A model generated the notes under the pieces. The model did no database searches and was not told the DNA's origin. It saw nothing but the letters and a program-made list of their open reading frames with translations. A DNA stretch of 64,000 bases from assembly GCA_012813795.1 (NCBI GenBank), contig GCA_012813795.1_4087.1; one strand, written 5' to 3'. The DNA is from a phage. This document shows, in pieces, positions 29,498 to 43,018 of the stretch. The position numbers and the translations under genes were made by a program. The stretch's first letter is position 1, and each line of letters starts with the position of its first letter.

Positions 29498-29900
29498 TTA
29501 CGTAATCCTCATACTGTTCGTATACACGCATTATACTCTGATATGTCACAAAGTCAATACCAAAGGTATCATCAATGAACTGATATTGCATAAACTCTTC
29601 CTCGGTAGCACCAATAGGAAGTGTGCCGTTTCGTTGATCGTTTGATTGAACATCTTCAATGTACATCAAACCTATACTTTCATCTAAAGTGATATCTATC
29701 ATAAAAACATCTTCACTATAAAACATGTTATATGAACGGATGAAAAGATTACCAGTTCTATCAAAACTTGATACATGTGTTTCAACGTAGGTTCTATCTA
29801 AACTAAAGAATAAACCAGTACCATCGGGTTTTCGTTGGTCTTTCAATTTAATTTCGATAGCATCAAATATCGGTTTAATATTAAACTTTTTCATAAGCAA
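29484..29900 (-). CDS. Hypothetical protein, tandem paralog 2
   Basis: C-terminal YQFIDDTFGIDFVTYQSIMRVYEQYE. Confidence 0.6.
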   Translation of the reverse strand: MLMKKFNIKPIFDAIEIKLKDQRKPDGTGLFFSLDRTYVETHVSSFDRTGNLFIRSYNMFYSEDVFMIDITLDESIGLMYIEDVQSNDQRNGTLPIGATEEEFMQYQFIDDTFGIDFVTYQSIMRVYEQYEDYVIGRY

Positions 29901-30079
29901 ATCACATACTTATTACTATGTGGATCGTAACAGTAAGAGTCGTTCACCTTAATGCCAGGTTTGAGTTCCAGGGTTGTACCCATTTCAGTACTGGGTTCTG
30001 CATCACAATAAATCATCACACCAATGCCACCGAGTAAGGCTATGATACATATAACTGCACCTATTGTATATTCCATCAC
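29891..30079 (-). CDS. Small membrane protein
   Basis: 62-aa ORF with one hydrophobic helix AVICIIALLGGIGVMIY. Confidence 0.5.
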   Translation of the reverse strand: MMEYTIGAVICIIALLGGIGVMIYCDAEPSTEMGTTLELKPGIKVNDSYCYDPHSNKYVICL

Positions 30080-30178: not shown

Positions 30179-30525
30179 TTCACATTATCATAAGTAATGT
30201 TAGATAGATCATAAATCAATGATAACTGAAAAAATGAAGCTTCGTCTATATCTACTGGGATTATAACATCATCATCTTCTGCCATTTTATTATCGTAGTA
30301 TTTTATGTGGTCTTCATTAAACTCAATAGAGATTGATACTGCGTTGGATTTCATATCTTCAATTAATCCAATCAAATTAGATTTATCATTAATAAAAAAT
30401 CCAATTCCAACCCTACGGTCATCTGGATATGGATAGTACCATCTATTAAATACTAGACTATCTGGTAAATCAACATCATGTGTTGATACGAGAGATTTTA
30501 CAATTTCCATCCAAGCATAATTCAT
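30112..30525 (-). CDS. Hypothetical protein whose 3' end runs through the 43-bp duplication
   Basis: 137-aa ORF; last about 21 codons are encoded by the two repeat units in different frames. Confidence 0.6.
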   Translation of the reverse strand: MNYAWMEIVKSLVSTHDVDLPDSLVFNRWYYPYPDDRRVGIGFFINDKSNLIGLIEDMKSNAVSISIEFNEDHIKYYDNKMAEDDDVIIPVDIDEASFFQLSLIYDLSNITYDNVKDLFILYNKMYNYFLRPFYIVQ

Positions 30526-30537
30526 AATTAAAACTCC

Positions 30538-30569
30538 ATAAGAAAAGGGACAGAAATAATCTGTCCCTT
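30538..30569 (-). terminator. Stem-loop after the hibernation-factor gene
   Basis: AAGGGACAG-aaataat-CTGTCCCTT 9-bp stem, T-rich on minus side. Confidence 0.5.
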
Positions 30570-30576
30570 TGTTATA

Positions 30577-30909
30577 TTACTCTTCTTCGTCAGTTACATC
30601 AACTACAACTGGACGGTCTGGATGGTTTCGGTGGTGCAATTTAATGCTTTTGTCTTTACTGAATACAGTTTCCATTTTTTCGAATGAATCGACAATCGCC
30701 TTGTATAAATCTGCATCATCGGCAGTAACAGACTTACCACCTGATGTTAAAGTTACTGCGTACTGTGTCTTATGCTCTTTTTTCACATGAACACCAATAT
30801 TCAGTACTGAAGAATCACTAAATTTATTTAGAGTGTTTGCTTCTTGATGAATTGCGTCATGGATTGCTGGAGTAATATCAACATTACCTTGAATAACTAG
30901 ATTTAGCAT
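30577..30909 (-). CDS. hpf: Ribosome hibernation promoting factor / RaiA (YfiA family) homologue
   Basis: MLNLVIQGNVDITPAIHDAI ... TLTSGGKSVTADDADLYKAIVDSFEKMETVFSKDK aligns with E. coli HPF along its length. Confidence 0.75.
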   Translation of the reverse strand: MLNLVIQGNVDITPAIHDAIHQEANTLNKFSDSSVLNIGVHVKKEHKTQYAVTLTSGGKSVTADDADLYKAIVDSFEKMETVFSKDKSIKLHHRNHPDRPVVVDVTDEEE

Positions 30910-30923
30910 ACTTCACCTTCCTT

Positions 30924-31853
30924 TTATATTGAGCTTAACAAAGTATCCGCTCTGTTTGTTACTTGCCTATACCATAAGGAATTTTTGATTTCTCTTTTAA
31001 ACTTCTTATGATTTTCAGCTTCAGCACTTCTCCATAGTTTATTAAATGAGGCCAACTTATCAACACCCATCGTGTAAGCCATGTCAAAGAGAATACGTTG
31101 TTGGTCTTTTGTAAGATTTACTGCATTTTTTTTCTTCATTAGAGTTGTAAAGTCATTATATGTCCTTTTCAAATCTTGAAGTAATAGTTTATGTGCTTGT
31201 GCTTTGGTAATACCGTTTCTGTACTTAATTGCATCAGATTCACGTGGACCGAGGTAGTGACCATATGCGATTGTGTAGTTACCTTTCATATCCTTATAAG
31301 GATGAAATTTTGAATTGTAGAAAGGAACTCCAACTTTTCCCCCAAGTAAACGTCTTTTGTTCTTGGACTGAAATTCAATTGAACCTTCAGCTTCTTTGAT
31401 GTGTGCTACTATTTCAGGATCATTATAATCGAAAAGTACTACCACATCAGGTAACAGTACGTCTTTCAAATCCTCTTTTGTTGGGATAAAGATACCCTGC
31501 GATGTATGAAGTTTAGCATTAAGATTGATATTCTTCAATACTGTAACGTAATCATCTAACAACACATTATGCGGTTTAAACTTCTTAGCTATCGAATGAT
31601 AACTATCACCGTATTCAACAGTATAATGTTTCTCGCTGCCCGGAACTACTTTAGGTGTATACCCTTTGGGTAATTCCTGCTTTTGAATTTGTGTAACTTG
31701 CGGTTTTAAATTGTGCACCTGACTTTCGCCCGATGATGATGCACGACCATGATGAGAAAAACCATAAAAAAATCCAAACGCAGCGATGATAACAAGTGAA
31801 ACTAATAAGCCTATGGCTGTCTTAGTTTTAGGTGTTTGTATCGCTATTGTCAA
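30924..31853 (-). CDS. Membrane-anchored lysozyme: N-terminal transmembrane anchor, LysM-like domain, GH24 (T4 lysozyme-type) catalytic domain
   Basis: TM helix GLLVSLVIIAAFGFFYG; LysM-like HYTVEYGDSYHSIAKKF; GH24 motifs EAEGS...YKDMKGNYTIAYGH and WYRQVTNRADTL; TTG start with AAGGAGG ribosome-binding site. Confidence 0.85.
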   Translation of the reverse strand: MTIAIQTPKTKTAIGLLVSLVIIAAFGFFYGFSHHGRASSSGESQVHNLKPQVTQIQKQELPKGYTPKVVPGSEKHYTVEYGDSYHSIAKKFKPHNVLLDDYVTVLKNINLNAKLHTSQGIFIPTKEDLKDVLLPDVVVLFDYNDPEIVAHIKEAEGSIEFQSKNKRRLLGGKVGVPFYNSKFHPYKDMKGNYTIAYGHYLGPRESDAIKYRNGITKAQAHKLLLQDLKRTYNDFTTLMKKKNAVNLTKDQQRILFDMAYTMGVDKLASFNKLWRSAEAENHKKFKREIKNSLWYRQVTNRADTLLSSI

Positions 31854-31972
31854 AAACGCCTCCTTTGTTTGCGTGTTATGATGAGCAATTACAAAGAGGG
31901 CTTATGAGGCCATTTGCAAAAGCCTCATCGGACTTTCTACAATACTGAACTGTTCTTACTGAACATTTAAGT

Positions 31973-32000
31973 AGTATAGCATACTTTTTTGTTATATCAA
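31973..32000 (-). promoter_or_regulatory. Sigma70-type promoter upstream of the lysozyme gene
   Basis: Minus strand reads TTGATA-16 nt-TATACT; a GCCTCAT hairpin follows in the leader. Confidence 0.45.
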
Positions 32001-32023
32001 GACCTATTTACCAAATAACCACA

Positions 32024-32434
32024 TTAATTGTAGTATGTTCTACCAACAGTAATGTGATATTTGAAATATTTGGACGGTAAGCCAAGTTCACTACGAATTT
32101 GTGTAATGAAGTCATCTTCAAACTCAATGATAAAGAATGACCCTGGCTTCTTATTGTCTTTTACTTCTTCGATGAAAGGATTGAACTTAATCTTCACTTT
32201 CATACCATCGTACTTTTTCCAGTACTCTGGATTTGGTGGCACTTCACCTCGAACAATACTGACGTGTGCTCCCCATTGTGGGTCTTTAACATCAATGTGT
32301 AGATCAGTTCTGATGAAGTACTGGTAGTATCTAACCAACTGTAATGGAAGTTGCAGTACTAACCAGAAATCCTTCTTCTTTTTCATAGTCCCACGGTCTG
32401 GATCATACACCAGAGTTCCTTCCATTTCAATCAT
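32024..32434 (-). CDS. Hypothetical protein
   Basis: 136-aa ORF. Confidence 0.6.
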   Translation of the reverse strand: MIEMEGTLVYDPDRGTMKKKKDFWLVLQLPLQLVRYYQYFIRTDLHIDVKDPQWGAHVSIVRGEVPPNPEYWKKYDGMKVKIKFNPFIEEVKDNKKPGSFFIIEFEDDFITQIRSELGLPSKYFKYHITVGRTYYN

Positions 32435-32441
32435 ATTTTAC

Positions 32442-32645
32442 CTATAAATGTACATATATGTTTTTATTTTCAATACGAACATATGTTTCCAAAACATCTT
32501 TTGGAATTTTATTACTTGTTTTGTACCATGTAGTATTATCTACTAAAACAAAAGTTTCACCGTCAGTTTCACCAAATGTACTCAATGCATAAATGAAGTA
32601 ATTTGGTGCTGCACTACAATAGATATCAGCATTAATTTCAATCAT
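32442..32645 (-). CDS. Hypothetical protein
   Basis: 67-aa ORF. Confidence 0.5.
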   Translation of the reverse strand: MIEINADIYCSAAPNYFIYALSTFGETDGETFVLVDNTTWYKTSNKIPKDVLETYVRIENKNIYVHL

Positions 32646-32648
32646 ATT

Positions 32649-32783
32649 TTACACCATTACAAAGCTTAATACAACTAATGTAATAAACACACCGACAATC
32701 GCGGTCATTTCTGGATTTGCATCATAAGTGTAGCGAATACACTTAACAAAATCCGATCCAAATTTCTTTAATCCTTTCATCAT
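32649..32783 (-). CDS. Small membrane protein (44 aa), not in ORF track
   Basis: ATGATG start with AAGGA ribosome-binding site; C-terminal hydrophobic helix IVGVFITLVVLSFVMV. Confidence 0.4.
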   Translation of the reverse strand: MMKGLKKFGSDFVKCIRYTYDANPEMTAIVGVFITLVVLSFVMV

Positions 32784-32832
32784 TTTTTTCCTTTTTTAAC
32801 ATCAAACATAAAGACTTCTACGTATACCACGG

Positions 32833-33219
32833 TCAATTCCCCAAATCTGTTAAGATATCTAAGATTATATCATGAATTTCGAAATCGGTGTAAGAAAAGT
32901 TTCGTGTGAGCTTATCATTAACTTCATCAATGGACAACATTTGATATCCGACTAGTACACCCTGAACACGACTGCGTTTAACTCTTGAGTACAGGTAAGA
33001 AGGTACTGAAATACGAGTCCCAAGAAATGTAGTACCTTCCCCATATAACTCTACTGTATATCGGTTCTTACTTTTGTTTCTTACATTAACATAGCATTGT
33101 GGATAACGTCTAGGTGTAATACTTTCATACAACATAGATGCAAAACTATCTTTAGAATTATAATACTTTTTGACGATCTCTGTAAATCGTTTAGTATGTC
33201 TCTTTTTCCATCTCATCAT
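32833..33219 (-). CDS. Hypothetical basic protein
   Basis: 128-aa ORF. Confidence 0.6.
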   Translation of the reverse strand: MMRWKKRHTKRFTEIVKKYYNSKDSFASMLYESITPRRYPQCYVNVRNKSKNRYTVELYGEGTTFLGTRISVPSYLYSRVKRSRVQGVLVGYQMLSIDEVNDKLTRNFSYTDFEIHDIILDILTDLGN

Positions 33220-33677
33220 TTAGATCCTATAAAAACTAATGGAAAATATATCTCATCATAAGTTGAGAGTGATTTACATTTCTGAATCATCTCATAATGG
33301 ATAATTTCAGATTCAATATTAGGATATGGAACAGGTGTAGGTGTGGATGGTTGTAATGCATAAAATGTATCTAATCTATTATATTCACCCATTGGTGTAT
33401 TACTCACATCTGGATATCTAACTTCGATCATAACCTGACAATTCGTTGTGTCATCCCACACATAAAATAACTCTTGTGCTACGCATTGGACTGAATAATT
33501 ACCATCAAATGCACTAAACATCGCACCGTCATAGTATCGGAATTGCGGATTTGTATACCCAAGAATTTCAGCTAATATATTAGCTTTGTGTTCATAAAAA
33601 TCCATTTTCAATAGATTAGTATCTTTACAAACATCAACCAAACGATACAAGCATTGCAATATTTCACGATTAATCAT
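33216..33677 (-). CDS. Hypothetical protein
   Basis: 153-aa ORF. Confidence 0.6.
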   Translation of the reverse strand: MINREILQCLYRLVDVCKDTNLLKMDFYEHKANILAEILGYTNPQFRYYDGAMFSAFDGNYSVQCVAQELFYVWDDTTNCQVMIEVRYPDVSNTPMGEYNRLDTFYALQPSTPTPVPYPNIESEIIHYEMIQKCKSLSTYDEIYFPLVFIGSK

Positions 33678-33723
33678 AATATTACCTTAAAAATATTCCC
33701 CACATAGTGAGGAATATAAAGTT

Positions 33724-33957
33724 TTAGTCATCTTTATCAAGCAACTCTTGCAATTCTTCACGATATGTGAAGTACGAGATGATGATAAGTAGAACGACAA
33801 TTGCAGTAATTACAATCCATACTGGTACAAAATGTAATACTAATGCGAACATCAATATTACTAAAATGCTCATTGCAGTACTGAATAGTAGTTTCACTGT
33901 ATCAACAAAACCATCCAACAAGCGTACTGCAATATTTTTAAGTAGTTTATCAACCAT
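33724..33957 (-). CDS. Small membrane protein with two predicted transmembrane helices (holin-like topology)
   Basis: 77 aa; two hydrophobic stretches and a charged C-terminus DKDD. Confidence 0.4.
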   Translation of the reverse strand: MVDKLLKNIAVRLLDGFVDTVKLLFSTAMSILVILMFALVLHFVPVWIVITAIVVLLIIISYFTYREELQELLDKDD

Positions 33958-34534
33958 TTTTATTCCTCATATAGTTTTTATAACATTTTCTACACAGGCT
34001 CTTATATGATTCATCACCACCAATAAACACTTTATCAGTACTATCTACGATGCGTGCATTCATTATGGCATTTCTTCCGCACTTTTGATTTTCACATACG
34101 TTCTTTAATTCATGGATCTCATCTGCTATTTCAAATAACCTTTGAGAACCTTCAAATGTATTTGATTCAAAATCGGTTTTAATACCATAACAATATACAT
34201 CAACCATATGCTCATCAGCAATATCGGCTAATAAATCAATTTGTTTTCGATTTAAAAACTGACATTCATCAACGTAGATACTATTATAATCATTGTCAAC
34301 CTGTAATAGTTTTATTACGTCATGAATAACGCTTAGGTCATCTTTTGGAATAACTTGAGCTTCAGATTCTATACCGATTCTCGATGTTATTTTACCAGTA
34401 CCATAACGATCATCTAATGCACTCGTTAAGTAGATGACTTTCATCCCGTTCTTCTTGTGGTTATATGCGTTCTGTAAAAGATGTGTACTCTTTCCTGATG
34501 ACATACTCCCACTAAAGAAAATAAGTTTACCCAT
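33950..34534 (-). CDS. tdk: Thymidine kinase
   Basis: P-loop FFSGSMSSGKST, VDECQFL, zinc-ribbon cysteines CENQKCGRNA...CRKCY; start set at ATG 34534 with AAGGA ribosome-binding site (track begins at TTG 34540). Confidence 0.9.
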   Translation of the reverse strand: MGKLIFFSGSMSSGKSTHLLQNAYNHKKNGMKVIYLTSALDDRYGTGKITSRIGIESEAQVIPKDDLSVIHDVIKLLQVDNDYNSIYVDECQFLNRKQIDLLADIADEHMVDVYCYGIKTDFESNTFEGSQRLFEIADEIHELKNVCENQKCGRNAIMNARIVDSTDKVFIGGDESYKSLCRKCYKNYMRNKNG

Positions 34535-34548
34535 AACCAATCCTTAGT

Positions 34549-34719
34549 TTATAAACTTGTTTCTGTTGTACTAATTACACTACCTCCGTATAGTAATTTT
34601 ACAGTAATGCGTTTATGTGGTGAAGTACTACCATCACTATTCCACAGTTCTACATCTTCTGATTCTATTTCTACACTAAGATTATTTCGAATTAGTAATT
34701 CTATATCTGTTTCATCCAT
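34549..34719 (-). CDS. Small hypothetical acidic protein (56 aa), not in ORF track
   Basis: ATG at 34719 overlaps the stop of the upstream gene by 8 nt; ends 8 nt before tdk. Confidence 0.4.
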   Translation of the reverse strand: MDETDIELLIRNNLSVEIESEDVELWNSDGSTSPHKRITVKLLYGGSVISTTETSL

Positions 34720-35047
34720 TTTTAATTCTCAAAAAAGTATGTTTACATTTTACTCTTTGTCCGTAATAAGAAACACCTTCATTGAACATTTCAATCTTAC
34801 CTTCTTTAAGAAGACGTAAGATATCAGGGTCATTCTTCGTTTGAACACAATGTTTTCCATTAACCTGTAATTCTGCACCGCTTTTCAGAATTTCATAAAT
34901 CAATTTGCGGCGTTTCCCGCCATAAGGTGCATCACGCACTGTATCAAGTAATACCTTACATTCAGGCTTTAAATCTCGGTGTAGTTTTCCATCTTTCGAA
35001 ACGTATGTTTCAAAAGCATTATAGTTCTTACTACCTCTAAGTGCCAT
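34712..35047 (-). CDS. Hypothetical protein
   Basis: 111-aa ORF. Confidence 0.6.
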   Translation of the reverse strand: MALRGSKNYNAFETYVSKDGKLHRDLKPECKVLLDTVRDAPYGGKRRKLIYEILKSGAELQVNGKHCVQTKNDPDILRLLKEGKIEMFNEGVSYYGQRVKCKHTFLRIKNG

Positions 35048-35534
35048 AATTTTTCACCATATCAGGATACTTTTCCATTAGTTCAGTAAGACGTTTACGT
35101 TCTTGTTCTTCAAGTAAGCTATTAGAATATAGTGTTTTTAACTTTATACCTAATACATTTTCTGCGTTTTTAATTCGTTCACAGAAAGCATGATTTTTTG
35201 TGATTTTCTTACTTTCTGAAAACATTATATCACCAACATTGAAAATGTACTTTTCTTCTTCAGTACTGAATTCTGGTGCTTCAGCAACTATATAGATATC
35301 TTCAGAATATTGTGGGTACGTACTAAAAACTTTACCATTATACAAGGCAGTGATTGCAATATCGGCAAATACATTCGATGGTTCAGAACGTTCACGGTAA
35401 TGTTCAGTTCGTACAATCTCTTTAATGGTATCAATCGCATCTGATGTACTATGTGCGTAATCAAAACTCATTATACCATCAGTTGCACAATCAGATTCAC
35501 CATATGAACTACGCAATAATATAATTGTATACAT
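35037..35534 (-). CDS. Hypothetical protein
   Basis: 165-aa ORF. Confidence 0.6.
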   Translation of the reverse strand: MYTIILLRSSYGESDCATDGIMSFDYAHSTSDAIDTIKEIVRTEHYRERSEPSNVFADIAITALYNGKVFSTYPQYSEDIYIVAEAPEFSTEEEKYIFNVGDIMFSESKKITKNHAFCERIKNAENVLGIKLKTLYSNSLLEEQERKRLTELMEKYPDMVKNYGT

Positions 35535-35541
35535 AAAACCT

Positions 35542-35823
35542 CTACATTGCTGGTACTGTACTCAACATTAGAAGTACTGCATTTTCATCAAGGGACTCTG
35601 CTGAATCCATAATTACAGAGTTAAACAAATCAGAATCATACTCAAATGCTTCGTAGTCTGTGTCATTAGGGATAAGCTGGTACGTATAGACGATATCGAA
35701 TGTATCATCGTCAGTGGTTTTTTTGAAATGCTTTAAATCATTTACATTTTCAAGGATTGCATATTCTTCAAAGCCTTTAGTACCATCATTCATCAACATC
35801 CATGCTACGCCAACAATTTTCAT
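35542..35823 (-). CDS. Hypothetical protein
   Basis: 93-aa ORF. Confidence 0.55.
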   Translation of the reverse strand: MKIVGVAWMLMNDGTKGFEEYAILENVNDLKHFKKTTDDDTFDIVYTYQLIPNDTDYEAFEYDSDLFNSVIMDSAESLDENAVLLMLSTVPAM

Positions 35824-35838
35824 ATATTTGAATCCTTA

Positions 35839-36408
35839 TTATTTGTTTACAAAGAAATTACGTGCTTCTTCAAAGGTCATTGAAGTATATACTGGATTCC
35901 ACGCATCGTCAACAGAAGTCAGTACTTTAACTTCCATTACATCTTGTGGTGTATAGAATTGCCATGTATTGTGATCTGGCTCATAGTTAGGGTCCAGAAC
36001 AAAAACTGTTCCATCCTGACCATAAACTTGACCATCCTCGAATAGCTCACGGAAGAAGTCTTCTCCAGTAGTTGGGTCTTCGTATGCATTATAAAAACGA
36101 AAAACAACATTCTCAACATCAGTTCGGGTAGTACCATCGTCTTCATCATATTCTACCAAACGGTCCTGATGAAATACTAGGTCAATAGCACCAATGCGAG
36201 GTTTATTATGTGGAGTTTTGATTTCTTGCTGGGAATTGAAATCAATACGTTCAGTACTGATGAATACACCACTCGGAGTAATTTCAATACCAGTGACATT
36301 TTCAGCAGAATAGTAAACCTCACACATATCATCAATGTGCATGTGCTCATGATACACTTCCATTTCAGGATTCTGCATCAACAGTGCTGCTAAGTCTTTT
36401 GCTTTCAA
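35839..36408 (-). CDS. Hypothetical protein
   Basis: 189-aa ORF. Confidence 0.6.
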   Translation of the reverse strand: MKAKDLAALLMQNPEMEVYHEHMHIDDMCEVYYSAENVTGIEITPSGVFISTERIDFNSQQEIKTPHNKPRIGAIDLVFHQDRLVEYDEDDGTTRTDVENVVFRFYNAYEDPTTGEDFFRELFEDGQVYGQDGTVFVLDPNYEPDHNTWQFYTPQDVMEVKVLTSVDDAWNPVYTSMTFEEARNFFVNK

Positions 36409-36797
36409 TCTTCAATCTCCATAGAATTATCATCATCATAATCGTCACTTGTGTACTTAGTTTTTACCTCAATACCATTCTCGTGAAGGTATGTGATAAA
36501 ACCATTACCATAAACGAATTGATTATAGTAAATGTTTTCTTCCACATGAGTGTCATATTCATCTTCATAATATGTGGGCATTGTAACATCATGCCCTGCA
36601 CTTTGCAAGTACTGGAACAACTCTTTCAGTACTACTTCAATATCACCTTCTTCTGTACCATAACAATACGCAGGTTCACCATGTGTGAATTTGAATCCTT
36701 TACAGGAAACTGTAAAAATATCACTCATACACATACCACAATCATCACATTCATGTATAGAACAATGCTGGTGGAATTTAATCTTTTTGATTTGCAT
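36405..36797 (-). CDS. Hypothetical protein with Cys/His-rich N-terminus (possible zinc-binding)
   Basis: HQHCSIHECDDCGMC cluster; 130 aa. Confidence 0.55.
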   Translation of the reverse strand: MQIKKIKFHQHCSIHECDDCGMCMSDIFTVSCKGFKFTHGEPAYCYGTEEGDIEVVLKELFQYLQSAGHDVTMPTYYEDEYDTHVEENIYYNQFVYGNGFITYLHENGIEVKTKYTSDDYDDDNSMEIED

Positions 36798-37161
36798 TTA
36801 GAAAATCCTGTAAAGATGTAGTAGACATTGGACTATCAGCACCATCATACCACAGTGATGTATATGGCTGAACTGAACTAATATCAATACACAACCCTTC
36901 ACGCTCACATTTTCGAGCGAATTCTTCAGTAGTTAGTTTGTTACCAAAAGAAATCTCAAATTCATAACTAGACATATCAATATCAGTACTGTAAATCAAT
37001 GCACCATCATATGTAATATGGAGTTTAGAATCTGCGTCAAAAAGACGATCTGAAATAGTTTCATAATCATCTTCAGGAACTGCTTCAATAAGACGTGCCA
37101 TTAGTCCAGATGTTACGCGGTAATCACTCATATATATTCTCCAAAAGAAAAGGAGAGTCAA
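36778..37161 (-). CDS. Hypothetical protein
   Basis: 127-aa ORF. Confidence 0.55.
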   Translation of the reverse strand: MTLLFFWRIYMSDYRVTSGLMARLIEAVPEDDYETISDRLFDADSKLHITYDGALIYSTDIDMSSYEFEISFGNKLTTEEFARKCEREGLCIDISSVQPYTSLWYDGADSPMSTTSLQDFLNANQKD

Positions 37162-37181
37162 TATGACTCTCCATGTTTATA

Positions 37182-37643
37182 TTATTCAAGATACTTAAGT
37201 TTATATAAAGTACCCTCAATGAAACTCATTATATCTTCAAGGGTATTAGTACTACCATAGTCTTCTGCTTCTTCAAGCATAGCATGAACGTACTTACATT
37301 GTTCACAGTATTCTTCAAGAATAGGAATACACTGTTCAATTGGTGTGAACTTATAACTGTGTCCAGTGCCAATTTGTAAAGCACCACGAGTGTTCATAAT
37401 TCCTTCAATGAACGCATCGACATATTCTGGTAACTCTTTATACAACTCATCTAATTGTAGATGTTTTGTGTAGTGTTTACTTTGTAAATGCCAGCTATGT
37501 GCAATTGCTGGTAGTATAATGCTGTTTTCAATAAATGTCAATAGTACTTCATCATAAGCACTGTCTTCTTCAGTACAGCCAATGAAGTCCATAACATGTC
37601 GCAAGTCGTTAATATTTTCCATAAAATCTCTCCAGGGAGTCAT
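37182..37643 (-). CDS. Hypothetical protein
   Basis: 153-aa ORF. Confidence 0.6.
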   Translation of the reverse strand: MTPWRDFMENINDLRHVMDFIGCTEEDSAYDEVLLTFIENSIILPAIAHSWHLQSKHYTKHLQLDELYKELPEYVDAFIEGIMNTRGALQIGTGHSYKFTPIEQCIPILEEYCEQCKYVHAMLEEAEDYGSTNTLEDIMSFIEGTLYKLKYLE

Positions 37644-37654
37644 TCTATGTCTAT

Positions 37655-38071
37655 TTATTTGATCAGAAATGTAAATTCGGGATTCATATCTCTTATTACT
37701 GAATTACGTCTTCTATCCCATACAACTTTACTAAAATACTCGGAGTCATCACATACTATCAGTATACAATTCCTAAGAGAACTCGTTGTGTAAGTACTTA
37801 AATCATTTTCTGTAATGAAATGAACATTCCAGTTGACTTGTACTGGATAATCTCGTTTAAAAAACAAAACTACTATAGGTCTTTCAGTACTCAATGCATT
37901 AATAAATTCGATTACACTATCATAGATTTCAGTACGGATATTATTGGTTTTTATTGTACTTATGTAATTCTGTTTAATTCCGTGCTCTTCATTGATTTGA
38001 TACTCAAAAAACTTTTTAAACAATTCTTTGGTTAAATCAGATGAATTTTTAATATTCGTTGCGTTACTCAT
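37655..38071 (-). CDS. Hypothetical protein
   Basis: 138-aa ORF. Confidence 0.6.
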   Translation of the reverse strand: MSNATNIKNSSDLTKELFKKFFEYQINEEHGIKQNYISTIKTNNIRTEIYDSVIEFINALSTERPIVVLFFKRDYPVQVNWNVHFITENDLSTYTTSSLRNCILIVCDDSEYFSKVVWDRRRNSVIRDMNPEFTFLIK

Positions 38072-38791
38072 TCACTTCGTTCTCTCGTAACTCAAGAATT
38101 CGTTTCGTTATCTACGATAACTCACTCATTCATATTAATTAATATTGTATTGTACTTTTAAAGATTGACGGGATTTGTTGAGGACATTTTCATCCCCCCG
38201 CAGGGGAATGATATTAAAAAAGAACCAATGAAGGTTCTTGATTTTGACGCTGATGGCATCGGAATTTATCGAATTGCGAATTTCTCCATATTTTGGACGG
38301 TTCAAGGGTGTCCAATTTTTGGAGAACGAAAGCGGGTTGCTCTGTTTCTCTCTATCGCAGTCATATGCAACGGTCGCAGGTATTTTCATCCCCTGCACTA
38401 AAGTACTGGAACTATTCGATCAATTCAGTACTCGTTTTACTCAATTTTTGGGTGCAACTTTCCCGTAGAAAAATTGACCGCTTGTTTTAAGTAAAACTCC
38501 CTTAGCAAATCTGGTAAGGTGCGATCCTTATACATCTATCGAGGAACTCTCTGTATGCTTATCGGAGTTCTTTATTGAGCCGTGTCGCCGTGTGATCCGT
38601 GTCTTATTTCGCGTTTGTATGAATGCACTTGGATGGTACTAACGGGTTTCTTTTGCTCATCGCCTCAGTGGGAAGGCTCATCTATCCTTTACATTTTCAA
38701 GAGAAGTAGGTTCTTCTTGTCCGTTGTTAAAACGTCCACTGACATTTTCCATTACAATATAATTATAGCACAATATAAAGTATTGTCCCAA
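38072..38791. other. 720-bp non-coding island with several stem-loops (candidate structured RNA, origin or regulatory region)
   Basis: Only long stretch without a credible co-directional ORF; visibly less AT-rich than the flanks; hairpins CCCC-ccgca-GGGG near 38190 and TGGAC-ggttcaagggt-GTCCA near 38295. Confidence 0.5.
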
Positions 38792-39205
38792 TTACATATA
38801 AACTTTTTTCAATTCTTTGCTGCTTCGTTCAAATACTGTTTCAATGAACTCAATATCCTGAAGAAGCTGTAGAGTACTGGCATCTGTCTCATTGCGTGAC
38901 ACATTTCTGTACTTTTGTTCAGGGTGATTGAATACCACCTTGACTACACTATTTAGGTCTACAAAATTTGACGTTTTTTTCGTATAGGAAGCCTGAAGCT
39001 TAATATACTTCCCATTATCTTGTAGATTAGTTTTATGAATTAGTTCTTCAATACCTGTAAGATGTAAATAACTATCTTCTTCTTTGACGAATGTAATAGT
39101 CAACAGTACTGTCTTTTCGTCTCCCATGTCAGAGATATTTTTCACAGCACTAACAATTTCCAAGTTTGAAAAATCTAAATCTTTAAGCATTACACATATT
39201 TCCAC
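38792..39205 (-). CDS. Hypothetical protein
   Basis: 137-aa ORF. Confidence 0.6.
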   Translation of the reverse strand: MEICVMLKDLDFSNLEIVSAVKNISDMGDEKTVLLTITFVKEEDSYLHLTGIEELIHKTNLQDNGKYIKLQASYTKKTSNFVDLNSVVKVVFNHPEQKYRNVSRNETDASTLQLLQDIEFIETVFERSSKELKKVYM

Positions 39206-39546
39206 AAAGTTCTATAAGTGATAATTTCTTCTCTGGTAACAGAAACTTCATTGCACTTAACACCATCCGTTTCATACTCGAATGGTCGTTGTGGTCGATA
39301 TTCTGTTAAACCTCGTTCATACGTACAATGATAATACTTGTTCTCGTTTATGTCAAGAAAAACAAGATCAAATTCTTCAGTAAATCGTCTATGCCCTTTA
39401 CTTTCATTGCAAATGATTTTGTACTGCACATCTGGACCAAAGGTTTCAGTACTGTCATCCCATGCACCATAGTCAGTATACAAATCATCTTCATCTAACT
39501 CTGCAAGATGCCACATTAACTGTGGTAAAAAGATTTTTGATTTCAT
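39190..39546 (-). CDS. Hypothetical protein
   Basis: 118-aa ORF with GGAG ribosome-binding site. Confidence 0.55.
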   Translation of the reverse strand: MKSKIFLPQLMWHLAELDEDDLYTDYGAWDDSTETFGPDVQYKIICNESKGHRRFTEEFDLVFLDINENKYYHCTYERGLTEYRPQRPFEYETDGVKCNEVSVTREEIITYRTLWKYV

Positions 39547-39560
39547 TTATTTTCTCCATT

Positions 39561-39586
39561 AAAAAAGGACTTGATTTCTCAAGTCC
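39561..39586 (-). terminator. Rho-independent terminator after the HNH gene
   Basis: GGACTTGA-tttc-TCAAGTCC perfect 8-bp stem followed on minus strand by TTTTTT. Confidence 0.6.
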
Positions 39587-39599
39587 CTATTATAACATA

Positions 39600-40211
39600 T
39601 TACTCATGTTTATCCAACAGCTTTTGTGCCTTTTTTAATGCTTTCATGTGTCGCCCGTACTCACGAACATGCCACAGATGATCGTTATCCCATAGCTCTT
39701 GACGCAATTTACGTTCTTCGATCATTTCTGGTGTAGGACGTTTACTTTCCTTCTCAATCTTATTGAAATAACGATTCATATGTTCTTCAAGTAGATTTAG
39801 GTTTTTGACTTTCTCAAGGAATTCATCAACCGTTTCAGTTTTATTTGAACGCATTTGGTTGCATCTTGAGCACATTGTATTAAAGTTGGACTCCAAATCA
39901 GCACCACCTTTAGATGCAAGATGATTATGATCTACAGTCATCATAACTTCATAAAGACCACATACTGCATACACATTTAAATGCGGTTTACCATATACCG
40001 GATCACTACAGTTAGAACGTTCGATTCGAACTTCTGTAGCCTCGATGCCACAAGCAATGCACTTACAATTCTTAACGAATGTTAGTACTTTTTGTGGAAA
40101 GTATCTGAAAGTAATACCATTATAAGTATAACGTTTCATTTTGGTACTAGTATGATTGAGTTCATCTAGTAAACTCAATTTGGTTACATAATAAACATGA
40201 TATTTAGACAT
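39600..40211 (-). CDS. HNH endonuclease (free-standing, homing-endonuclease-like)
   Basis: His-Me finger MTVDHNHLASKGGADLESNFNTMCSRCNQ plus upstream CxxC pair. Confidence 0.8.
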   Translation of the reverse strand: MSKYHVYYVTKLSLLDELNHTSTKMKRYTYNGITFRYFPQKVLTFVKNCKCIACGIEATEVRIERSNCSDPVYGKPHLNVYAVCGLYEVMMTVDHNHLASKGGADLESNFNTMCSRCNQMRSNKTETVDEFLEKVKNLNLLEEHMNRYFNKIEKESKRPTPEMIEERKLRQELWDNDHLWHVREYGRHMKALKKAQKLLDKHE

Positions 40212-40212
40212 A

Positions 40213-40527
40213 CTATTCCTTAACTTTTATGTTAACACGAATATTTTGGTCTTGGAGTTTGCGAATTGTATCAATTAGTGCATCATATCTCAGTGCACAT
40301 TCATTGTATATGGAATCCCAACGCGTCAGAACGTTAAGAATTTCATCACCAGCATATCCTCTATTACCATGTGAGTCAACAACAATTTTTTTAGGAATTG
40401 GTGTATCTTCTTCGCATCGTTCTAATAAGATTTCCTGGGTGATTATTGGTGACGCTTGAACTGGAACCTTATTAGAACACCCAGTGATAAACATAAAAGT
40501 AATCAAGAATGTTAATATGTATTTCAT
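40213..40527 (-). CDS. Lipoprotein (outer-membrane spanin candidate)
   Basis: Signal peptide with lipobox FITGC; 104 aa; start overlaps the stop of the upstream membrane protein. Confidence 0.45.
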   Translation of the reverse strand: MKYILTFLITFMFITGCSNKVPVQASPIITQEILLERCEEDTPIPKKIVVDSHGNRGYAGDEILNVLTRWDSIYNECALRYDALIDTIRKLQDQNIRVNIKVKE

Positions 40528-40898
40528 TTAAATTTCTCTCTAGCTGCAAGTGAATTTTGTTTTAGATCATTCAAAAGTTTTACCCCTTCTTCATCTAAAC
40601 ATACATTTCTATAAACTTCACGCTCAATAATAACTGGTACTTTAGTTTCTATTACCTTTGCATTATTTTGCATTATATGTTTAGTTTCTACATAGTTTTT
40701 GGTATTTTGGCTTTCAATTTTACTTAAAGCCGCATCTACTTTCTTCTCTATTTTTAATTCAATACTTTCTTTATACCCAGTATAAAAAGTATTAGCCTTC
40801 CAGCCACCAAAAGTACATGATGCCATCAGGAGAACAAACGCAATTGGTTTCCAGAACGGTATCAGTACTTTTGAAACAATAATATCTAGTACACTCAT
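40524..40898 (-). CDS. N-terminally membrane-anchored protein (inner-membrane spanin candidate)
   Basis: N-terminal TM helix IPFWKPIAFVLLMASCTF then charged helical region; 4-nt overlap with the downstream lipoprotein gene. Confidence 0.45.
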   Translation of the reverse strand: MSVLDIIVSKVLIPFWKPIAFVLLMASCTFGGWKANTFYTGYKESIELKIEKKVDAALSKIESQNTKNYVETKHIMQNNAKVIETKVPVIIEREVYRNVCLDEEGVKLLNDLKQNSLAAREKFK

Positions 40899-40943
40899 AA
40901 TAATATCTCCTATAGATGATGATATTATTTAGAGTGCTGAAAA

Positions 40944-41369
40944 TTAGCGTTTATCGATCATTGTTTGTACATGTTCTACGAGATGTACGATTCTGGAATC
41001 ACCTGATTCATACTTATCTTCGATCTCAACCTTAAATTCATCTTCAAGTTCCATGATCATTTCTACCCAGTCCAGTGAATCAAATTTGAATTTTTCTTCA
41101 ATTTCTAAGGAGGTTAAATGTAAATTCATCAGTACATCTGCCTCTGATACATCACCATAACGTCCAGAAATGAATTTTGCAATTGCTTTCTCAACGTCAG
41201 TTGGTCCACGTGTACGGTATTCTGGTTCAAGGAACCATTCACCCTTATTGATAGCTTCTAATTCTAGTTTAATTTCATGCATTACTTTATAACGATCAGT
41301 ACTTTTATGGATGCGGCTAACTTCGCGATTCAGTACACGTAGTGCATCAATAATTGTTGAATTCAGCAT
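40944..41369 (-). CDS. Acyl carrier protein-like protein
   Basis: C-terminal FDSLDWVEMIMELEDEFKVEI matches the ACP phosphopantetheine-attachment DSL helix-II region. Confidence 0.6.
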   Translation of the reverse strand: MLNSTIIDALRVLNREVSRIHKSTDRYKVMHEIKLELEAINKGEWFLEPEYRTRGPTDVEKAIAKFISGRYGDVSEADVLMNLHLTSLEIEEKFKFDSLDWVEMIMELEDEFKVEIEDKYESGDSRIVHLVEHVQTMIDKR

Positions 41370-41378
41370 ATAATCCTC

Positions 41379-42620: not shown

Positions 42621-43018
42621 AGATGTAATGTTAGCTCCTTAAGAAACCCATTATAGTACTTCATGAAATCTTTATGAAGAACTTTGTATTCTGATAAACT
42701 AAAACCTAGATTGATTATAGTATCTTCTTGAAAGAACTTTTCTTCTTCGGATAAATCCAGAGAAATAGATTGTTTGCCACCATTTAATATTTTAGTAAAG
42801 TGTAAACCATCATTATTGATTTCAACGTACATGAAGTTATTTTCACGGTCACGAGGGCAAACAATATTAATGGAACTTTCACCAGTATCATCGTATTCGA
42901 ATGATATTACATCATACTCCCCGATTCCATAAAATTGTTTATCACTCTTGTAACCACTATATACTTTTTTATACGAATCCATCTGTCTTATGGTGCTATA
43001 CACATCATCAAGATCCAT
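42617..43018 (-). CDS. Hypothetical protein
   Basis: 133-aa ORF, 4-nt overlap with neighbour. Confidence 0.6.
   Translation of the reverse strand: MDLDDVYSTIRQMDSYKKVYSGYKSDKQFYGIGEYDVISFEYDDTGESSINIVCPRDRENNFMYVEINNDGLHFTKILNGGKQSISLDLSEEEKFFQEDTIINLGFSLSEYKVLHKDFMKYYNGFLKELTLHL

What the first reader, a model, noticed from the sequence alone, without database searches (positions are those of the whole stretch)
30924..40898. Lysis functions look dispersed: anchored LysM-GH24 lysozyme, separate spanin-like pair, scattered small membrane proteins
The lysozyme carries an N-terminal transmembrane anchor and a LysM domain, which suggests a signal-anchored endolysin or a virion-associated hydrolase. 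A membrane-anchored protein plus overlapping lipoprotein pair (40213-40898) resembles a two-component spanin. Small membrane proteins at 32649-32783 and 33724-33957 are holin candidates. None of these assignments beyond the lysozyme fold is proven.
Basis: partly seen in the sequence, partly recalled or inferred. Interest (0 to 1): 0.4.

Follow-up and report, generated by a model that had tools for sequence, protein, structure and literature searches.

The report
Scattered lysis genes of a jumbo phage
This stretch of a RaK2-like jumbo coliphage carries an exported cell-wall-cutting enzyme and, 8 kb away, a two-protein outer-membrane disruptor; the same scattered layout is already described in its relatives and resembles phage T4, so it is ordinary for this group.

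Summary
The window is an Asteriusvirus (RaK2-like jumbo myophage), 97% identical to Escherichia phage A4.

- **Lysozyme (30924-31853).** It has an N-terminal hydrophobic export segment, a disordered linker, a LysM fold and a T4-type GH24 domain. The Glu/Asp/Thr triad is invariant. This architecture was published for its orthologues (CBB_187, 121Q gp532, RaK2 gp506). The phAPEC6 orthologue was not found in virions.
- **Spanin pair (40213-40898).** This is a conserved i-spanin/o-spanin pair. It is already in the 2018 spanin census for 121Q/PBECO4 and is annotated as spanins in phage Munch.
- **Small membrane proteins.** Neither matches a holin family, and both are missing from relatives that keep the endolysin and spanins. 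A better holin candidate lies outside the window: a 220-aa membrane protein present in all 72 RaK2-like genomes. Its link to the T4 holin T is weak, because the shared fold is a generic GAF fold.
- **Anchor or signal peptide.** This stays unresolved. A conserved signal-peptidase-like site follows the hydrophobic core.
- **New detail.** The endolysin gene has a conserved structured leader and a non-AUG start, recalling T4 gene e.

Verdict: real, correctly read in the main, already known. Low interest.

The parts
30924..31853 (-). Predicted endolysin, 309 aa. Domain order: export segment (residues about 12-33), disordered Q/P-rich linker (34-73), LysM (76-122), GH24 T4-type lysozyme (about 146-309). 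Catalytic residues E156, D188, T194.
   Evidence: Pfam PF00959 E=1.9e-11. The triad is invariant in 35 homologues. AF2 pLDDT is above 90 for residues 74-309. Foldseek matches T4 lysozyme. LysM hits in 20 of 35 members. Orthologue of CBB_187, 121Q gp532 and RaK2 gp506.
31755..31820 (-). Coding region for the N-terminal hydrophobic segment (residues 12-33). It could be a signal anchor, a SAR domain or the core of a signal peptide.
   Evidence: Kyte-Doolittle and Hessa scales. Uncharged run of 22 residues, followed by the conserved [AVTL]-x-S motif with an invariant Ser40.
31854..32003 (-). Promoter-like site and structured 5' leader of the endolysin gene. Elements in order: TTGATA-16-TGcTATACT; the invariant GTAGAAAGTCC; hairpin 1 with a GCAA loop; the pyrimidine tract GCCCTCTTTGT, complementary to the Shine-Dalgarno region ACAAAGGAGGC; and a TTG start.
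   Evidence: MFE z-score -3.2. Compensatory changes in hairpin 1. Shine-Dalgarno occlusion is not above the shuffled control.
40524..40898 (-). i-spanin, 124 aa. A type II inner-membrane protein with a periplasmic domain. Cys100 is conserved in 9 of 10 relatives.
   Evidence: phrog_1152 'Rz-like spanin' E=1.6e-25. Homologues in 75 records, annotated i-spanin in Munch, Muenster, K64-1 and SE_PL. Alignment A4. 121Q/PBECO4 are in the spanin census.
40213..40527 (-). o-spanin, 104 aa. An outer-membrane lipoprotein with lipobox ITGC17 and Ser at +2. Cys38 and Cys77 are invariant, as is a DTPxP motif. The start overlaps the i-spanin stop (ATGA).
   Evidence: Weak but repeated hits to P2 LysC/Rz1-like models: Pfam PF23793 in 8 of 10 members with best E=8.7e-4, and NCBIfam P2_Rz1 E=0.0079. 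Both are below the curated cut-offs. Annotated o-spanin in Munch, Muenster and K64-1.
33724..33957 (-). 77-aa protein with a long hydrophobic stretch (residues 16-67) read as a two-helix hairpin, and an acidic C-terminus. It overlaps the end of the thymidine kinase gene. Function unassigned; a weak holin candidate.
   Evidence: Hydropathy. phrog_22328, unknown function. No holin family hit. Present in 44 records only. Not found downstream of tk in the GAP32, CBB, BF and Yen9-04 loci.
32649..32783 (-). 44-aa protein with a C-terminal hydrophobic segment. Function unassigned; not supported as a holin.
   Evidence: Hydropathy. phrog_37784, unknown function. tblastn finds it only in the 121Q-type and RaK2 loci.
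39565..39588 (-). Terminator-like hairpin after the HNH gene. It may mark the end of the (ACP)-i-spanin-o-spanin-HNH transcription unit.
   Evidence: In Munch, terminators are annotated before the i-spanin and after the HNH gene.

Best explanation
The interval holds two of the three steps of a T4-style, non-clustered lysis system of a RaK2-like jumbo myophage.

(1) Endolysin, 30924-31853.
- It is a LysM plus GH24 muramidase.
- Its N-terminal hydrophobic segment would send it through the Sec system into the periplasm without needing a holin (inferred).
- LysM would hold it on the peptidoglycan and the E156/D188/T194 site would cut the glycan strands (inferred from fold and conserved residues).
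- Three fates of the N-terminus remain open: a permanent anchor, release as a SAR domain, or removal by signal peptidase.
- Because an exported lysozyme is dangerous, its synthesis is probably throttled. The gene has a conserved structured leader whose pyrimidine tract is complementary to the Shine-Dalgarno region, and a non-AUG start in all lineages but RaK2 (inferred, by analogy with T4 gene e).

(2) Spanin pair, 40524-40898 and 40213-40527.
- The two genes are adjacent, with the o-spanin start overlapping the i-spanin stop.
- The inner-membrane i-spanin and the outer-membrane lipoprotein o-spanin would bridge the periplasm. After the wall is degraded they would fuse or disrupt the outer membrane (inferred from family membership).
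- The two invariant cysteines of the o-spanin match the T4 PseT.2 pattern.

(3) Holin.
- It is most likely not in this interval.
- The only candidate present in every relative is a 220-239-aa protein with one N-terminal transmembrane helix and a periplasmic GAF-like domain. It lies about 125 kb away in phage A4.
- The 44-aa and 77-aa membrane proteins remain unassigned.
For: Identity of the phage.
- 97% nucleotide identity to Escherichia phage A4 over 98% of the region, and about 80% to other Asteriusvirus genomes.

Endolysin.
- GH24 domain above the Pfam cut-off.
- Triad invariant in 35 homologues.
- Confident LysM plus T4-lysozyme model.
- LysM hits in 20 of 35 members.
- The same three-domain reading was published for CBB_187 and its 121Q, RaK2 and GAP32 homologues, with growth inhibition on induction in E. 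coli reported as data not shown (PMC5259590).
- The phAPEC6 orthologue gp293 is absent from the virion proteome (PMC7247149).

Spanins.
- PHROG 'Rz-like spanin' E=1.6e-25.
- Lipobox with Ser at +2.
- ATGA overlap.
- Invariant C17, C38 and C77 in the o-spanin and C100 in 9 of 10 i-spanins.
- Repeated sub-threshold hits to P2 LysC/Rz1 models.
- The pair is conserved in 71-75 phage records and annotated as spanins in Munch, Muenster, K64-1 and SE_PL.
- PBECO4, 121Q and GAP32 are listed in the spanin census of Kongari et al. 2018 (PMC6139136).

Dispersal is conserved.
- Among the fetched relatives only 121Q and RaK2 have the spanins within 10 kb of the lysozyme. In Munch the two lie about 15 kb apart.

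Holin candidate outside the window.
- Present in all 72 RaK2-like records.
- Model pLDDT 86.9, with one transmembrane helix and an alpha/beta domain.
- Called 'holin' from HHpred in the fEgEco12 paper.
- Not listed in the phAPEC6 virion proteome, where it is gp172.

Leader.
-. The T4 gene e precedent is in PMC3014915.
Against: - Nothing here has been tested by experiment. The toxicity of CBB_187 is 'data not shown'.
- The orthologue is annotated 'tail lysozyme' in Munch and SE_PL.
- The hydrophobic segment is intermediate between SAR domains and stable anchors. Its Hessa sum is -1.4 for the window protein, with a family mean near 0. Its Gly/Ala/Ser/Thr fraction is 0.32-0.37, against 0.53-0.63 for two SAR comparators I recalled from memory.
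- A conserved signal-peptidase-like site exists.
- The coiled-coil signal in the i-spanin is weak, and its hydrophobic segment contains Lys and Pro.
- The o-spanin hits to Rz1/LysC models are below the curated cut-offs.
- The fEgEco12 authors' HHpred run called the o-spanin 'lytic conversion lipoprotein' (T5 Llp, 96.6%) and the i-spanin 'FtsB'.
- The T-like holin candidate has no sequence-level match to solved structures.
- It weakly matches a PHROG called 'virion structural protein' and is annotated 'structural protein' in A4 and Ecwhy_1.
- No T4-like late promoter motif precedes the lysozyme or the spanin genes.
- Predicted Shine-Dalgarno pairing is no higher than with shuffled upstream sequence.
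Confidence: 0.75

Rival explanations
1. The N-terminal segment is an ordinary cleavable Sec signal peptide. The mature enzyme would then be a soluble periplasmic LysM-GH24 endolysin, not an anchored one. This is a variant of the main explanation and is the reader's own refutation condition.
For: The motif [A/V/T/L]-[S/P/T]-S | [S/L/Q] has an invariant Ser and fits the -3/-1 rule in 35 of 35 homologues. It lies 6-8 residues after the hydrophobic core in 29 of them. Some members have a hydrophobic run of only 13-16 residues, or a Glu inside it. The published 'transmembrane' call rests on TMHMM, which in my experience often reads signal peptides as helices.
Against: The uncharged run is long for a signal peptide: 22 residues in the window protein, mean 18.4 in the family. 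The n-region is also long, giving a 40-residue presequence. A freely soluble active lysozyme in the periplasm would leave lysis timing to expression alone. No signal-peptide predictor could be run.
Confidence: 0.3
2. The lysozyme is a virion-borne (tail or internal) hydrolase used at entry, not the endolysin.
For: It is annotated 'tail lysozyme' in Munch and SE_PL. [quoted passage not shown] Other GH24 matches exist elsewhere in each genome: 3 places per Asteriusvirus record.
Against: phAPEC6 gp293 was not detected in virions, while the 96-kDa lysozyme gp241 was. CBB has separate baseplate lysozyme-domain proteins, CBB_238-240. An N-terminal export segment and a LysM module fit a periplasmic enzyme made in the infected cell. 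The gene sits among non-structural genes with no late-promoter-like motif.
Confidence: 0.07
3. One of the small membrane proteins, most likely the 77-aa hairpin protein at 33724-33957, is the holin or pinholin that triggers the exported endolysin.
For: It has class II holin-like size and topology: a hydrophobic hairpin and a charged C-terminus. It lies 1.9 kb upstream of the endolysin on the same strand. Exported endolysins are typically paired with small pinholins (established knowledge of phage 21 S21/R21). It is conserved in Asteriusvirus, RaK2-type and Munch-type phages.
Against: It matches no holin family. It was not found in the GAP32, CBB, BF and Yen9-04 loci, which keep the endolysin and spanins. 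It overlaps and is probably co-transcribed with thymidine kinase. Its C-terminus is acidic rather than basic.
Confidence: 0.12
4. The lipoprotein at 40213-40527 is a T5 Llp-like receptor-blocking (superinfection exclusion) lipoprotein, and its upstream partner is an unrelated membrane protein. On this reading the pair is not a spanin.
For: HHpred in the fEgEco12 supplement matches T5 Llp (8A60_B) at 96.6% probability, E=0.0023, and calls the partner 'FtsB' at 91%. The CBB homologue is annotated 'structural protein'.
Against: A second, unrelated small lipoprotein in fEgEco12 also hits Llp, so the match may reflect the lipoprotein signal. A profile search finds no Llp in the PDB sequences. The adjacent TM-protein plus lipoprotein pair is conserved across phages of Escherichia, Klebsiella, Salmonella, Erwinia, Yersinia, Serratia, Cronobacter, Pectobacterium and Xanthomonas, which is hard to square with blocking one particular receptor. 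PHROG, Pfam and NCBIfam all point to spanin families.
Confidence: 0.05

Closest known systems
Predicted endolysin of RaK2-like phages: CBB_187, 121Q gp532, RaK2 gp506, GAP32 gp180, phAPEC6 gp293
   Same: Orthologues, at 45-97% amino-acid identity over the full length. They share the N-terminal hydrophobic segment, the LysM module and the GH24 domain.
   Different: Nothing of substance. The window protein has a somewhat more hydrophobic N-terminal segment than the family mean.
Phage T4 lysis system (e, t, pseT.3/pseT.2), with non-clustered lysis genes
   Same: Lysis genes are dispersed around a large myophage genome. The lysozyme has the T4-type GH24 fold. The spanin genes are of the 'separated' class, and the o-spanin has two periplasmic cysteines as in PseT.2. 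The endolysin leader is structured, as in T4 gene e.
   Different: As I recall it, T4 E is cytoplasmic, with no export segment and no LysM. Here the i-spanin has a conserved periplasmic Cys, whereas PseT.3 has none. No TATAAATA late promoter lies inside the leader. Homology of the holin candidate to T is unproven.
SAR endolysins (P1 Lyz, phage 21 R21, phiKMV gp45)
   Same: An N-terminal hydrophobic segment on a phage muramidase. Export would be holin-independent, and the CBB orthologue is reported toxic on induction.
   Different: About 110 residues (linker plus LysM) separate the segment from the catalytic domain, instead of the two being directly adjacent. There are no cysteines for disulfide caging. 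The segment is poorer in Gly/Ala/Ser/Thr than the SAR comparators. Release from the membrane is untested.
Modular Gram-negative endolysins with a wall-binding domain (phiKZ gp144/KZ144, EL188)
   Same: A peptidoglycan-binding module is fused to a catalytic domain in a jumbo phage of a Gram-negative host, as the CBB authors noted.
   Different: The binding module here is LysM, not the KZ144-type domain. The catalytic domain is GH24. An export segment is present.
Two-component spanins in the census of Kongari et al. 2018 (families 'PBECO_4, 121Q' and 'PBECO_4, 121Q, GAP32')
   Same: The same gene pair in close relatives, already classed as i-spanin and o-spanin.
   Different: The window's o-spanin is only 57% identical to the 121Q one, and its i-spanin 69%. 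The features are otherwise unchanged.

Membership tests
GH24 / T4-type phage lysozyme (Pfam PF00959) | Profile match above the curated threshold | tested here: met
   44.8 bits against a cut-off of 22.3, E=1.9e-11. All 35 homologues match.
GH24 / T4-type phage lysozyme (Pfam PF00959) | Catalytic Glu-Asp-Thr triad (T4 E11/D20/T26) | tested here: met
   E156, D188 and T194 are invariant in 35 sequences. The Glu-Asp spacing is 32 residues, against 9 in T4 by my recollection of T4 numbering.
GH24 / T4-type phage lysozyme (Pfam PF00959) | T4 lysozyme fold | tested here: met
   AF2 pLDDT above 90. Foldseek hits T4 lysozyme and the gp5 lysozyme domain at E about 3e-6, TM-score 0.65 on the target.
GH24 / T4-type phage lysozyme (Pfam PF00959) | Muramidase activity | not testable with these tools
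   Needs an enzyme assay.
LysM domain (PF01476) | Profile match | tested here: inconclusive
   The window protein scores 15.5 bits against a cut-off of 20.9, E=0.017, over 17 of 43 profile positions. 20 of 35 homologues hit at E<=0.01, best 1e-4.
LysM domain (PF01476) | Beta-alpha-alpha-beta fold | tested here: met
   The AF2 model has E76-78, H85-92, H99-109 and E120-122 with pLDDT 91-95.
SAR (signal-arrest-release) endolysin | Weakly hydrophobic N-terminal TMD rich in Gly/Ala/Ser/Thr | tested here: inconclusive
   Gly/Ala/Ser/Thr fraction 0.32 (family mean 0.37), against 0.53-0.63 for P1 Lyz and R21. Hessa sum -1.4 (family mean 0.06), against +0.5 to +0.8. The comparator sequences are from memory.
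SAR (signal-arrest-release) endolysin | Catalytic domain directly follows the SAR domain | tested here: not met
   A linker and the LysM module (residues 34-145) lie between them.
SAR (signal-arrest-release) endolysin | Release from the membrane on depolarisation | not testable with these tools
   Needs fractionation with and without an uncoupler.
Two-component spanin (i-spanin + o-spanin) | i-spanin: a small protein with one N-terminal TMD and a periplasmic domain | tested here: met
   Hydrophobic segment at residues 6-30, with K10 and K17 on the N-terminal side. The hydrophobicity is marginal on the Hessa scale. phrog_1152 'Rz-like spanin' E=1.6e-25.
Two-component spanin (i-spanin + o-spanin) | o-spanin: a lipoprotein signal with a lipobox Cys and no Asp at +2, giving outer-membrane sorting | tested here: met
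   I-T-G-C17 followed by Ser. The Cys is invariant, and +2 is S/A/N/G in 10 relatives.
Two-component spanin (i-spanin + o-spanin) | Genes adjacent, embedded or overlapping, with the i-spanin first | tested here: met
   4-nt ATGA overlap. The same order holds in all relatives examined.
Two-component spanin (i-spanin + o-spanin) | Periplasmic cysteines for disulfide-linked complexes | tested here: met
   o-spanin C38 and C77 are invariant. i-spanin C100 is present in 9 of 10, with Ser in Munch. The T4 PseT.2 precedent is.
Two-component spanin (i-spanin + o-spanin) | Helical or coiled-coil periplasmic domain in the i-spanin | tested here: inconclusive
   Only a crude heptad count was possible, and the signal is weak.
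Two-component spanin (i-spanin + o-spanin) | Needed for outer-membrane disruption | not testable with these tools
   Needs genetics.
Holin (the 77-aa and 44-aa proteins in the window) | Small protein with at least one TMD | tested here: met
Holin (the 77-aa and 44-aa proteins in the window) | Membership of a described holin family | tested here: not met
   No holin hit in Pfam, PHROGs or NCBIfam.
Holin (the 77-aa and 44-aa proteins in the window) | Present wherever the cognate endolysin is present | tested here: not met
   The 77-aa protein is in 44 records, against 71-75 for the spanins, and was not found in the GAP32, CBB, BF and Yen9-04 loci. The 44-aa protein is only in the 121Q-type and RaK2 loci.
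T4 T-type holin (candidate outside the window; A4 protein P0075) | About 218 aa, with one N-terminal TMD and a large periplasmic domain | tested here: met
   220-239 aa, helix at residues 2-34, then an alpha/beta domain.
T4 T-type holin (candidate outside the window; A4 protein P0075) | Homology to T | tested here: inconclusive

The most novel reading that the evidence does not exclude
The endolysin of RaK2-like jumbo phages is a Sec-exported LysM-GH24 enzyme whose production is gated by a conserved leader RNA.

- The invariant GUAGAAAGUC segment and hairpin 1 compete for the same strand.
- Downstream, a pyrimidine tract can occlude the Shine-Dalgarno sequence.
- The start codon is non-AUG.

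Together these would form a translational switch that delays synthesis of an otherwise self-exporting lytic enzyme. It would work like T4 gene e but would be built differently, because there is no internal late promoter. Release or activation would then depend on a T-like holin with a GAF-type periplasmic sensor domain.
Probability: 0.25. Interest if true: 0.45.

Novelty: already known. Interest (0 to 1): 0.2.

Why it matters
It matters little beyond annotation.

- **Already in print for close relatives.** The endolysin architecture was described by Buttimer et al. 2017. The spanin pair is in Kongari et al. 2018 and in the Munch annotation. The scattered layout is known from T4-like phages.
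- **What this check adds.** Many GenBank records of this group still call these genes 'hypothetical', 'tail lysozyme', 'FtsB' or 'lytic conversion lipoprotein'. The analysis gives a consistent reading for them. It also shows that the small membrane proteins should not be named holins.
- **Open questions.** Three are worth a specialist's time:
  - how an exported, LysM-bearing endolysin is kept harmless until the end of infection;
  - whether the conserved leader RNA does this;
  - which protein is the holin.

Tried and rejected
- **Late-promoter motifs.** I searched for TATAAATA, ATAAATA and the TGAAACG motif reported for CBB. None lies upstream of the lysozyme or spanin genes.
- **Sigma-70-like sites.** They are no more frequent in the region than in shuffled sequence. 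The site upstream of the lysozyme is therefore only a lead, although it is conserved in five Asteriusvirus genomes.
- **Other GH24 copies.** There are none in the window.
- **Shine-Dalgarno occlusion.** I compared the pairing probability of GGAG in 16 leaders with shuffled upstream sequence. It was not significant in most, so I do not claim occlusion is shown.
- **Whole-leader alignment.** MAFFT plus RNAalifold misaligned the 3' half between lineages. I therefore counted covariation only for the 5' part.
- **A shared regulatory element for several lysis genes.** Rejected. The 12-mer TGTAGAAAGTCC occurs once per locus, only before the lysozyme gene, and not in the holin-candidate loci.
- **A small upstream ORF in the leader.** Considered and dropped, because GAP32-type leaders have no start codon there.
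- **Profile searches against PDB sequences.** Searches with the i-spanin, the o-spanin and the holin candidate gave nothing meaningful.
- **The search for related loci with the i-spanin.** It returned only 3 loci, so I fetched distant relatives one by one.
- **tRNA and Rfam scans of the window.** Both were empty.
- **Two papers.** The Munch paper and the EJP2 paper say nothing on lysis genes.

Full report
**What the window is.** A megablast of 30500-41500 finds Escherichia phage A4 (Asteriusvirus, 355 kb) at 97.2% identity over 98% of the query. About 50 other RaK2-like jumbo myophages match at lower identity. All genes between 29.5 and 42.6 kb lie on the minus strand and are tightly packed. 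The window is not A4 itself. After the acyl-carrier-like gene, the window has a block that begins with an RlaP-type nucleotidyltransferase (41379-42620). WPEC5, fEgEco12 and Munch have it too. A4 and phAPEC6 go straight to a roughly 930-aa tail protein.

**Checking the observation.**
- The 309-aa protein has one hydrophobic segment near its N-terminus and no cysteine.
- Its Pfam Phage_lysozyme match is well above threshold. Its LysM match is weak.
- An alignment of 35 homologues shows E156, D188 and T194 invariant within KEAEGS...PYKD...YTIGYGH. By my recollection of T4 numbering this is the T4 lysozyme triad, with about 22 extra residues between the Glu and the Asp.
- AlphaFold2 on that alignment gives pLDDT above 90 for residues 74-309. 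The model has a beta-alpha-alpha-beta LysM unit at 76-122 and a helical lysozyme domain. Residues 1-73 are disordered in the model.
- Foldseek returns T4 lysozyme and the gp5 lysozyme domain.
- 20 of the 35 homologues hit Pfam LysM on their own.
- So the described architecture is real.

**This architecture is already published.** Buttimer et al. 2017 describe CBB_187 as the predicted endolysin of phage CBB.
- They name an N-terminal transmembrane domain, a weak LysM domain and a C-terminal lysozyme domain.
- They list the homologues GAP32 gp180, 121Q gp532 and RaK2 gp506, and compare the N-terminus with SAR endolysins.
- They report that induction inhibits E. coli growth, as data not shown.
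- The window protein is 80% identical to the 121Q protein and 45-54% identical to the RaK2, GAP32 and other distant ones.

**Endolysin or virion enzyme?**
- The orthologue is called 'tail lysozyme' in Munch and SE_PL.
- However, the phAPEC6 virion proteome detected only the 96-kDa lysozyme gp241, not gp293. gp293 is the orthologue by position and sequence.
- CBB has separate baseplate proteins with lysozyme domains.
- An export segment and a wall-binding module also fit an enzyme that acts from inside the infected cell. I therefore favour endolysin.

- The hydrophobic run is long: 22 uncharged residues here, mean 18.4 in the family. It is fairly hydrophobic, with a Hessa sum of -1.4. The family mean is near zero, and some members carry a Glu inside the run.
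- Its Gly/Ala/Ser/Thr content (0.32-0.37) is below that of two SAR domains I recalled from memory (0.53-0.63) and close to that of a stable anchor.
- On the other hand, an invariant Ser follows the core by 6-8 residues in 29 of 35 members. A/V/T/L sits at -3 in all 35. This satisfies the signal peptidase -3/-1 rule.
- All three fates share Sec-dependent, holin-independent export. That fits the reported toxicity.

**The spanin pair.**
- The 124-aa protein matches the PHROG 'Rz-like spanin' at E=1.6e-25.
- The 104-aa protein has a lipobox (ITGC) with Ser at +2. Its start overlaps the upstream stop as ATGA.
- In ten relatives from seven host genera the lipobox Cys, two further cysteines (C38, C77) and a DTPxP motif are invariant. 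The i-spanin Cys100 is present in nine of ten.
- Eight of ten o-spanin homologues weakly hit the Pfam LysC (Rz1-like) model. The window protein hits NCBIfam P2_Rz1 over nearly its full length. Both hits are below the cut-offs.
- The pair is found in 71-75 phage records and is annotated i-spanin/o-spanin in Munch, Muenster, K64-1 and SE_PL.
- Kongari et al. 2018 list PBECO_4, 121Q and GAP32 among two-component spanin families. The same paper shows that the T4 o-spanin uses two cysteines.
- The fEgEco12 authors' HHpred labels ('FtsB', 'lytic conversion lipoprotein') are the only dissenting reading. I consider them artefacts of coiled-coil and lipoprotein-signal similarity.
- My heptad count for a coiled coil is weak, so that feature stays open.

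**Synteny around the spanins.**
- An acyl-carrier-like gene precedes the spanins in Asteriusvirus, GAP32, CBB and BF.
- The HNH endonuclease after the o-spanin is present in Asteriusvirus, Munch, RaK2 and XaC1. It is absent in GAP32, CBB, BF and EJP2.
- A terminator-like hairpin follows the HNH gene.

**The small membrane proteins.**
- Both are hydrophobic as described. They match only PHROGs of unknown function and no holin family.
- The 77-aa protein follows thymidine kinase in Asteriusvirus, RaK2-type and Munch-type phages. It was not found there in GAP32, CBB, BF and Yen9-04, where a different protein follows tk.
- The 44-aa protein is seen only in the 121Q-type and RaK2 loci.
- A holin need not be conserved. 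Even so, nothing beyond size and hydrophobicity supports the label.

**A better holin candidate, outside the window.**
- The fEgEco12 paper names a holin, Gp406c (220 aa), from a weak HHpred hit to the T4 T periplasmic domain.
- The protein is present in all 72 RaK2-like records. These include A4, where it lies at 258284-258943, about 125 kb from the lysozyme.
- The family has one N-terminal transmembrane helix and a roughly 170-aa domain.
- Foldseek places the T4 T domain at rank 2, E=2.9e-6.
- There is no sequence-level match to solved structures.
- It also weakly matches a PHROG named 'virion structural protein' and is annotated 'structural protein' in some genomes. However, the phAPEC6 copy, gp172, is not in the phAPEC6 virion list.
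- I rate it a reasonable but unproven T-type holin.

**A conserved leader on the endolysin gene (new here).**
- The 170-nt gap upstream of the gene holds a sigma-70-like site and a conserved leader.
- The 12-mer TGTAGAAAGTCC occurs once in the window. It occurs once per locus, about 95 nt before the lysozyme start, in 12 loci. These include Munch, GAP32, CBB, BF and Yen9-04, whose proteins are only about 50% identical.
- A hairpin with a GCAA loop follows. On 13 sequences, 92% of cells pair. Two pairs show compensatory changes (A-U against C-G, six sequences each). Only 1 of 500 shuffles reaches the covariation score, and slid registers fall to 62% or less.
- A mutually exclusive helix between the invariant GUAGAAAGUC and the 5' strand of that hairpin pairs in 13 of 13. 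It hardly varies, so it is neither supported nor refuted.
- Downstream, a pyrimidine tract is complementary to the Shine-Dalgarno region, and the two change together between lineages:
  - GCCCUCUUUGU with ACAAAGGAGGC in Asteriusvirus;
  - UCCUUAUU with AAUAAGGAGG in the GAP32 type;
  - CCUUUU with AAAAGG in RaK2.
- The window leader folds better than all 200 shuffles, z=-3.2.
- The predicted pairing of GGAG is no higher than with shuffled upstream sequence. Occlusion is therefore suggested, not shown.
- The start codon is TTG in Asteriusvirus, GAP32, CBB, BF and Yen9-04, GTG in the Munch type, and ATG only in RaK2.
- The precedent is T4 gene e, whose ribosome binding site is sequestered in early transcripts (PMC3014915). 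Here no late-promoter motif lies inside the leader.

**Verdict.**
- The lysozyme and spanin readings are supported. The holin reading is not.
- 'Dispersed lysis genes' is a conserved trait of this phage group that parallels T4.
- The main points are already in the literature or in database annotations of close relatives, so I rate the novelty as already known and the interest as low.
- The open points are the fate of the N-terminal segment, the role of the leader RNA and the identity of the holin.

Noticed in passing
window 31854-32003 (minus strand): The endolysin gene has a conserved structured 5' leader. It contains the invariant GTAGAAAGTCC, a GCAA-capped hairpin with compensatory changes, a competing invariant helix, and a pyrimidine tract complementary to the Shine-Dalgarno region. 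The start codon is non-AUG (TTG or GTG) in all lineages but RaK2. No Rfam family matches.
   Followed up: partly
window 32024-32434 (minus strand): The gene just upstream of the endolysin is an Acb1-like 2H phosphoesterase, a possible anti-CBASS nuclease. Pfam 2H-SAK scores E=2.3e-5, below the cut-off. HHpred to 7T26 gives 97.6% in the fEgEco12 supplement. tblastn finds it upstream of the lysozyme in 16 of 17 RaK2-like loci.
   Followed up: partly
window 30577-30909 (minus strand); hairpin at 30544-30570: A ribosome hibernation factor (S30AE/HPF-like, Pfam E=3.8e-10) lies 14 nt downstream of the endolysin. It is probably co-transcribed with it, and a strong hairpin follows.
   Followed up: no
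window 40944-41369 (minus strand): An acyl-carrier-protein-like gene with a roughly 60-aa N-terminal extension sits directly upstream of the spanins. The ACP, i-spanin, o-spanin order is conserved in Asteriusvirus, GAP32, CBB and BF. The Eneladusvirus paper also remarked on it.
   Followed up: partly
window 39600-40211 (minus strand): An HNH endonuclease starts 1 nt after the o-spanin stop. It is present at this spot in Asteriusvirus, Munch, RaK2 and XaC1 but absent in GAP32, CBB, BF and EJP2, as expected of a mobile or optional gene.
   Followed up: partly
window 41379-44595 compared with L001 (A4) and L005 (phAPEC6): The window, WPEC5, fEgEco12 and Munch carry an RlaP-type nucleotidyltransferase next to the ACP gene (in Munch with a few small ORFs between). 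A4 and phAPEC6 go straight to a roughly 930-aa tail protein. The window's phage is therefore a mosaic relative of A4, not A4 itself.
   Followed up: partly
window 38072-38791: A 720-bp stretch has no long ORF in an otherwise tightly packed region. It contains no tRNA and no Rfam hit. Other annotators place several very small CDSs here.
   Followed up: partly
window 57162-57395, 61884-62183 and 29891-30079 (minus strand): Three further small envelope proteins lie outside the finding: a 77-aa lipoprotein (lipobox LLVGC), a 99-aa protein with an N-terminal TMD (PHROG 'membrane protein'), and a 62-aa N-terminal-TMD protein with four cysteines.
   Followed up: no
window 40213-40898 compared with other Asteriusvirus genomes: Between the window/A4 lineage and other Asteriusvirus genomes the o-spanin has diverged more (57% identity) than the i-spanin (69-76%), although the two genes are adjacent.
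   Followed up: no
ON286972.1 258284-258943 (A4, outside the window); L006 1353-2015; L052 11235-11897: A 220-239-aa protein with one TMD and a periplasmic GAF-like domain is conserved in all 72 RaK2-like records. It is annotated variously as 'holin', 'membrane protein' and 'structural protein'. It is a candidate T4 T-type holin.
   Followed up: partly
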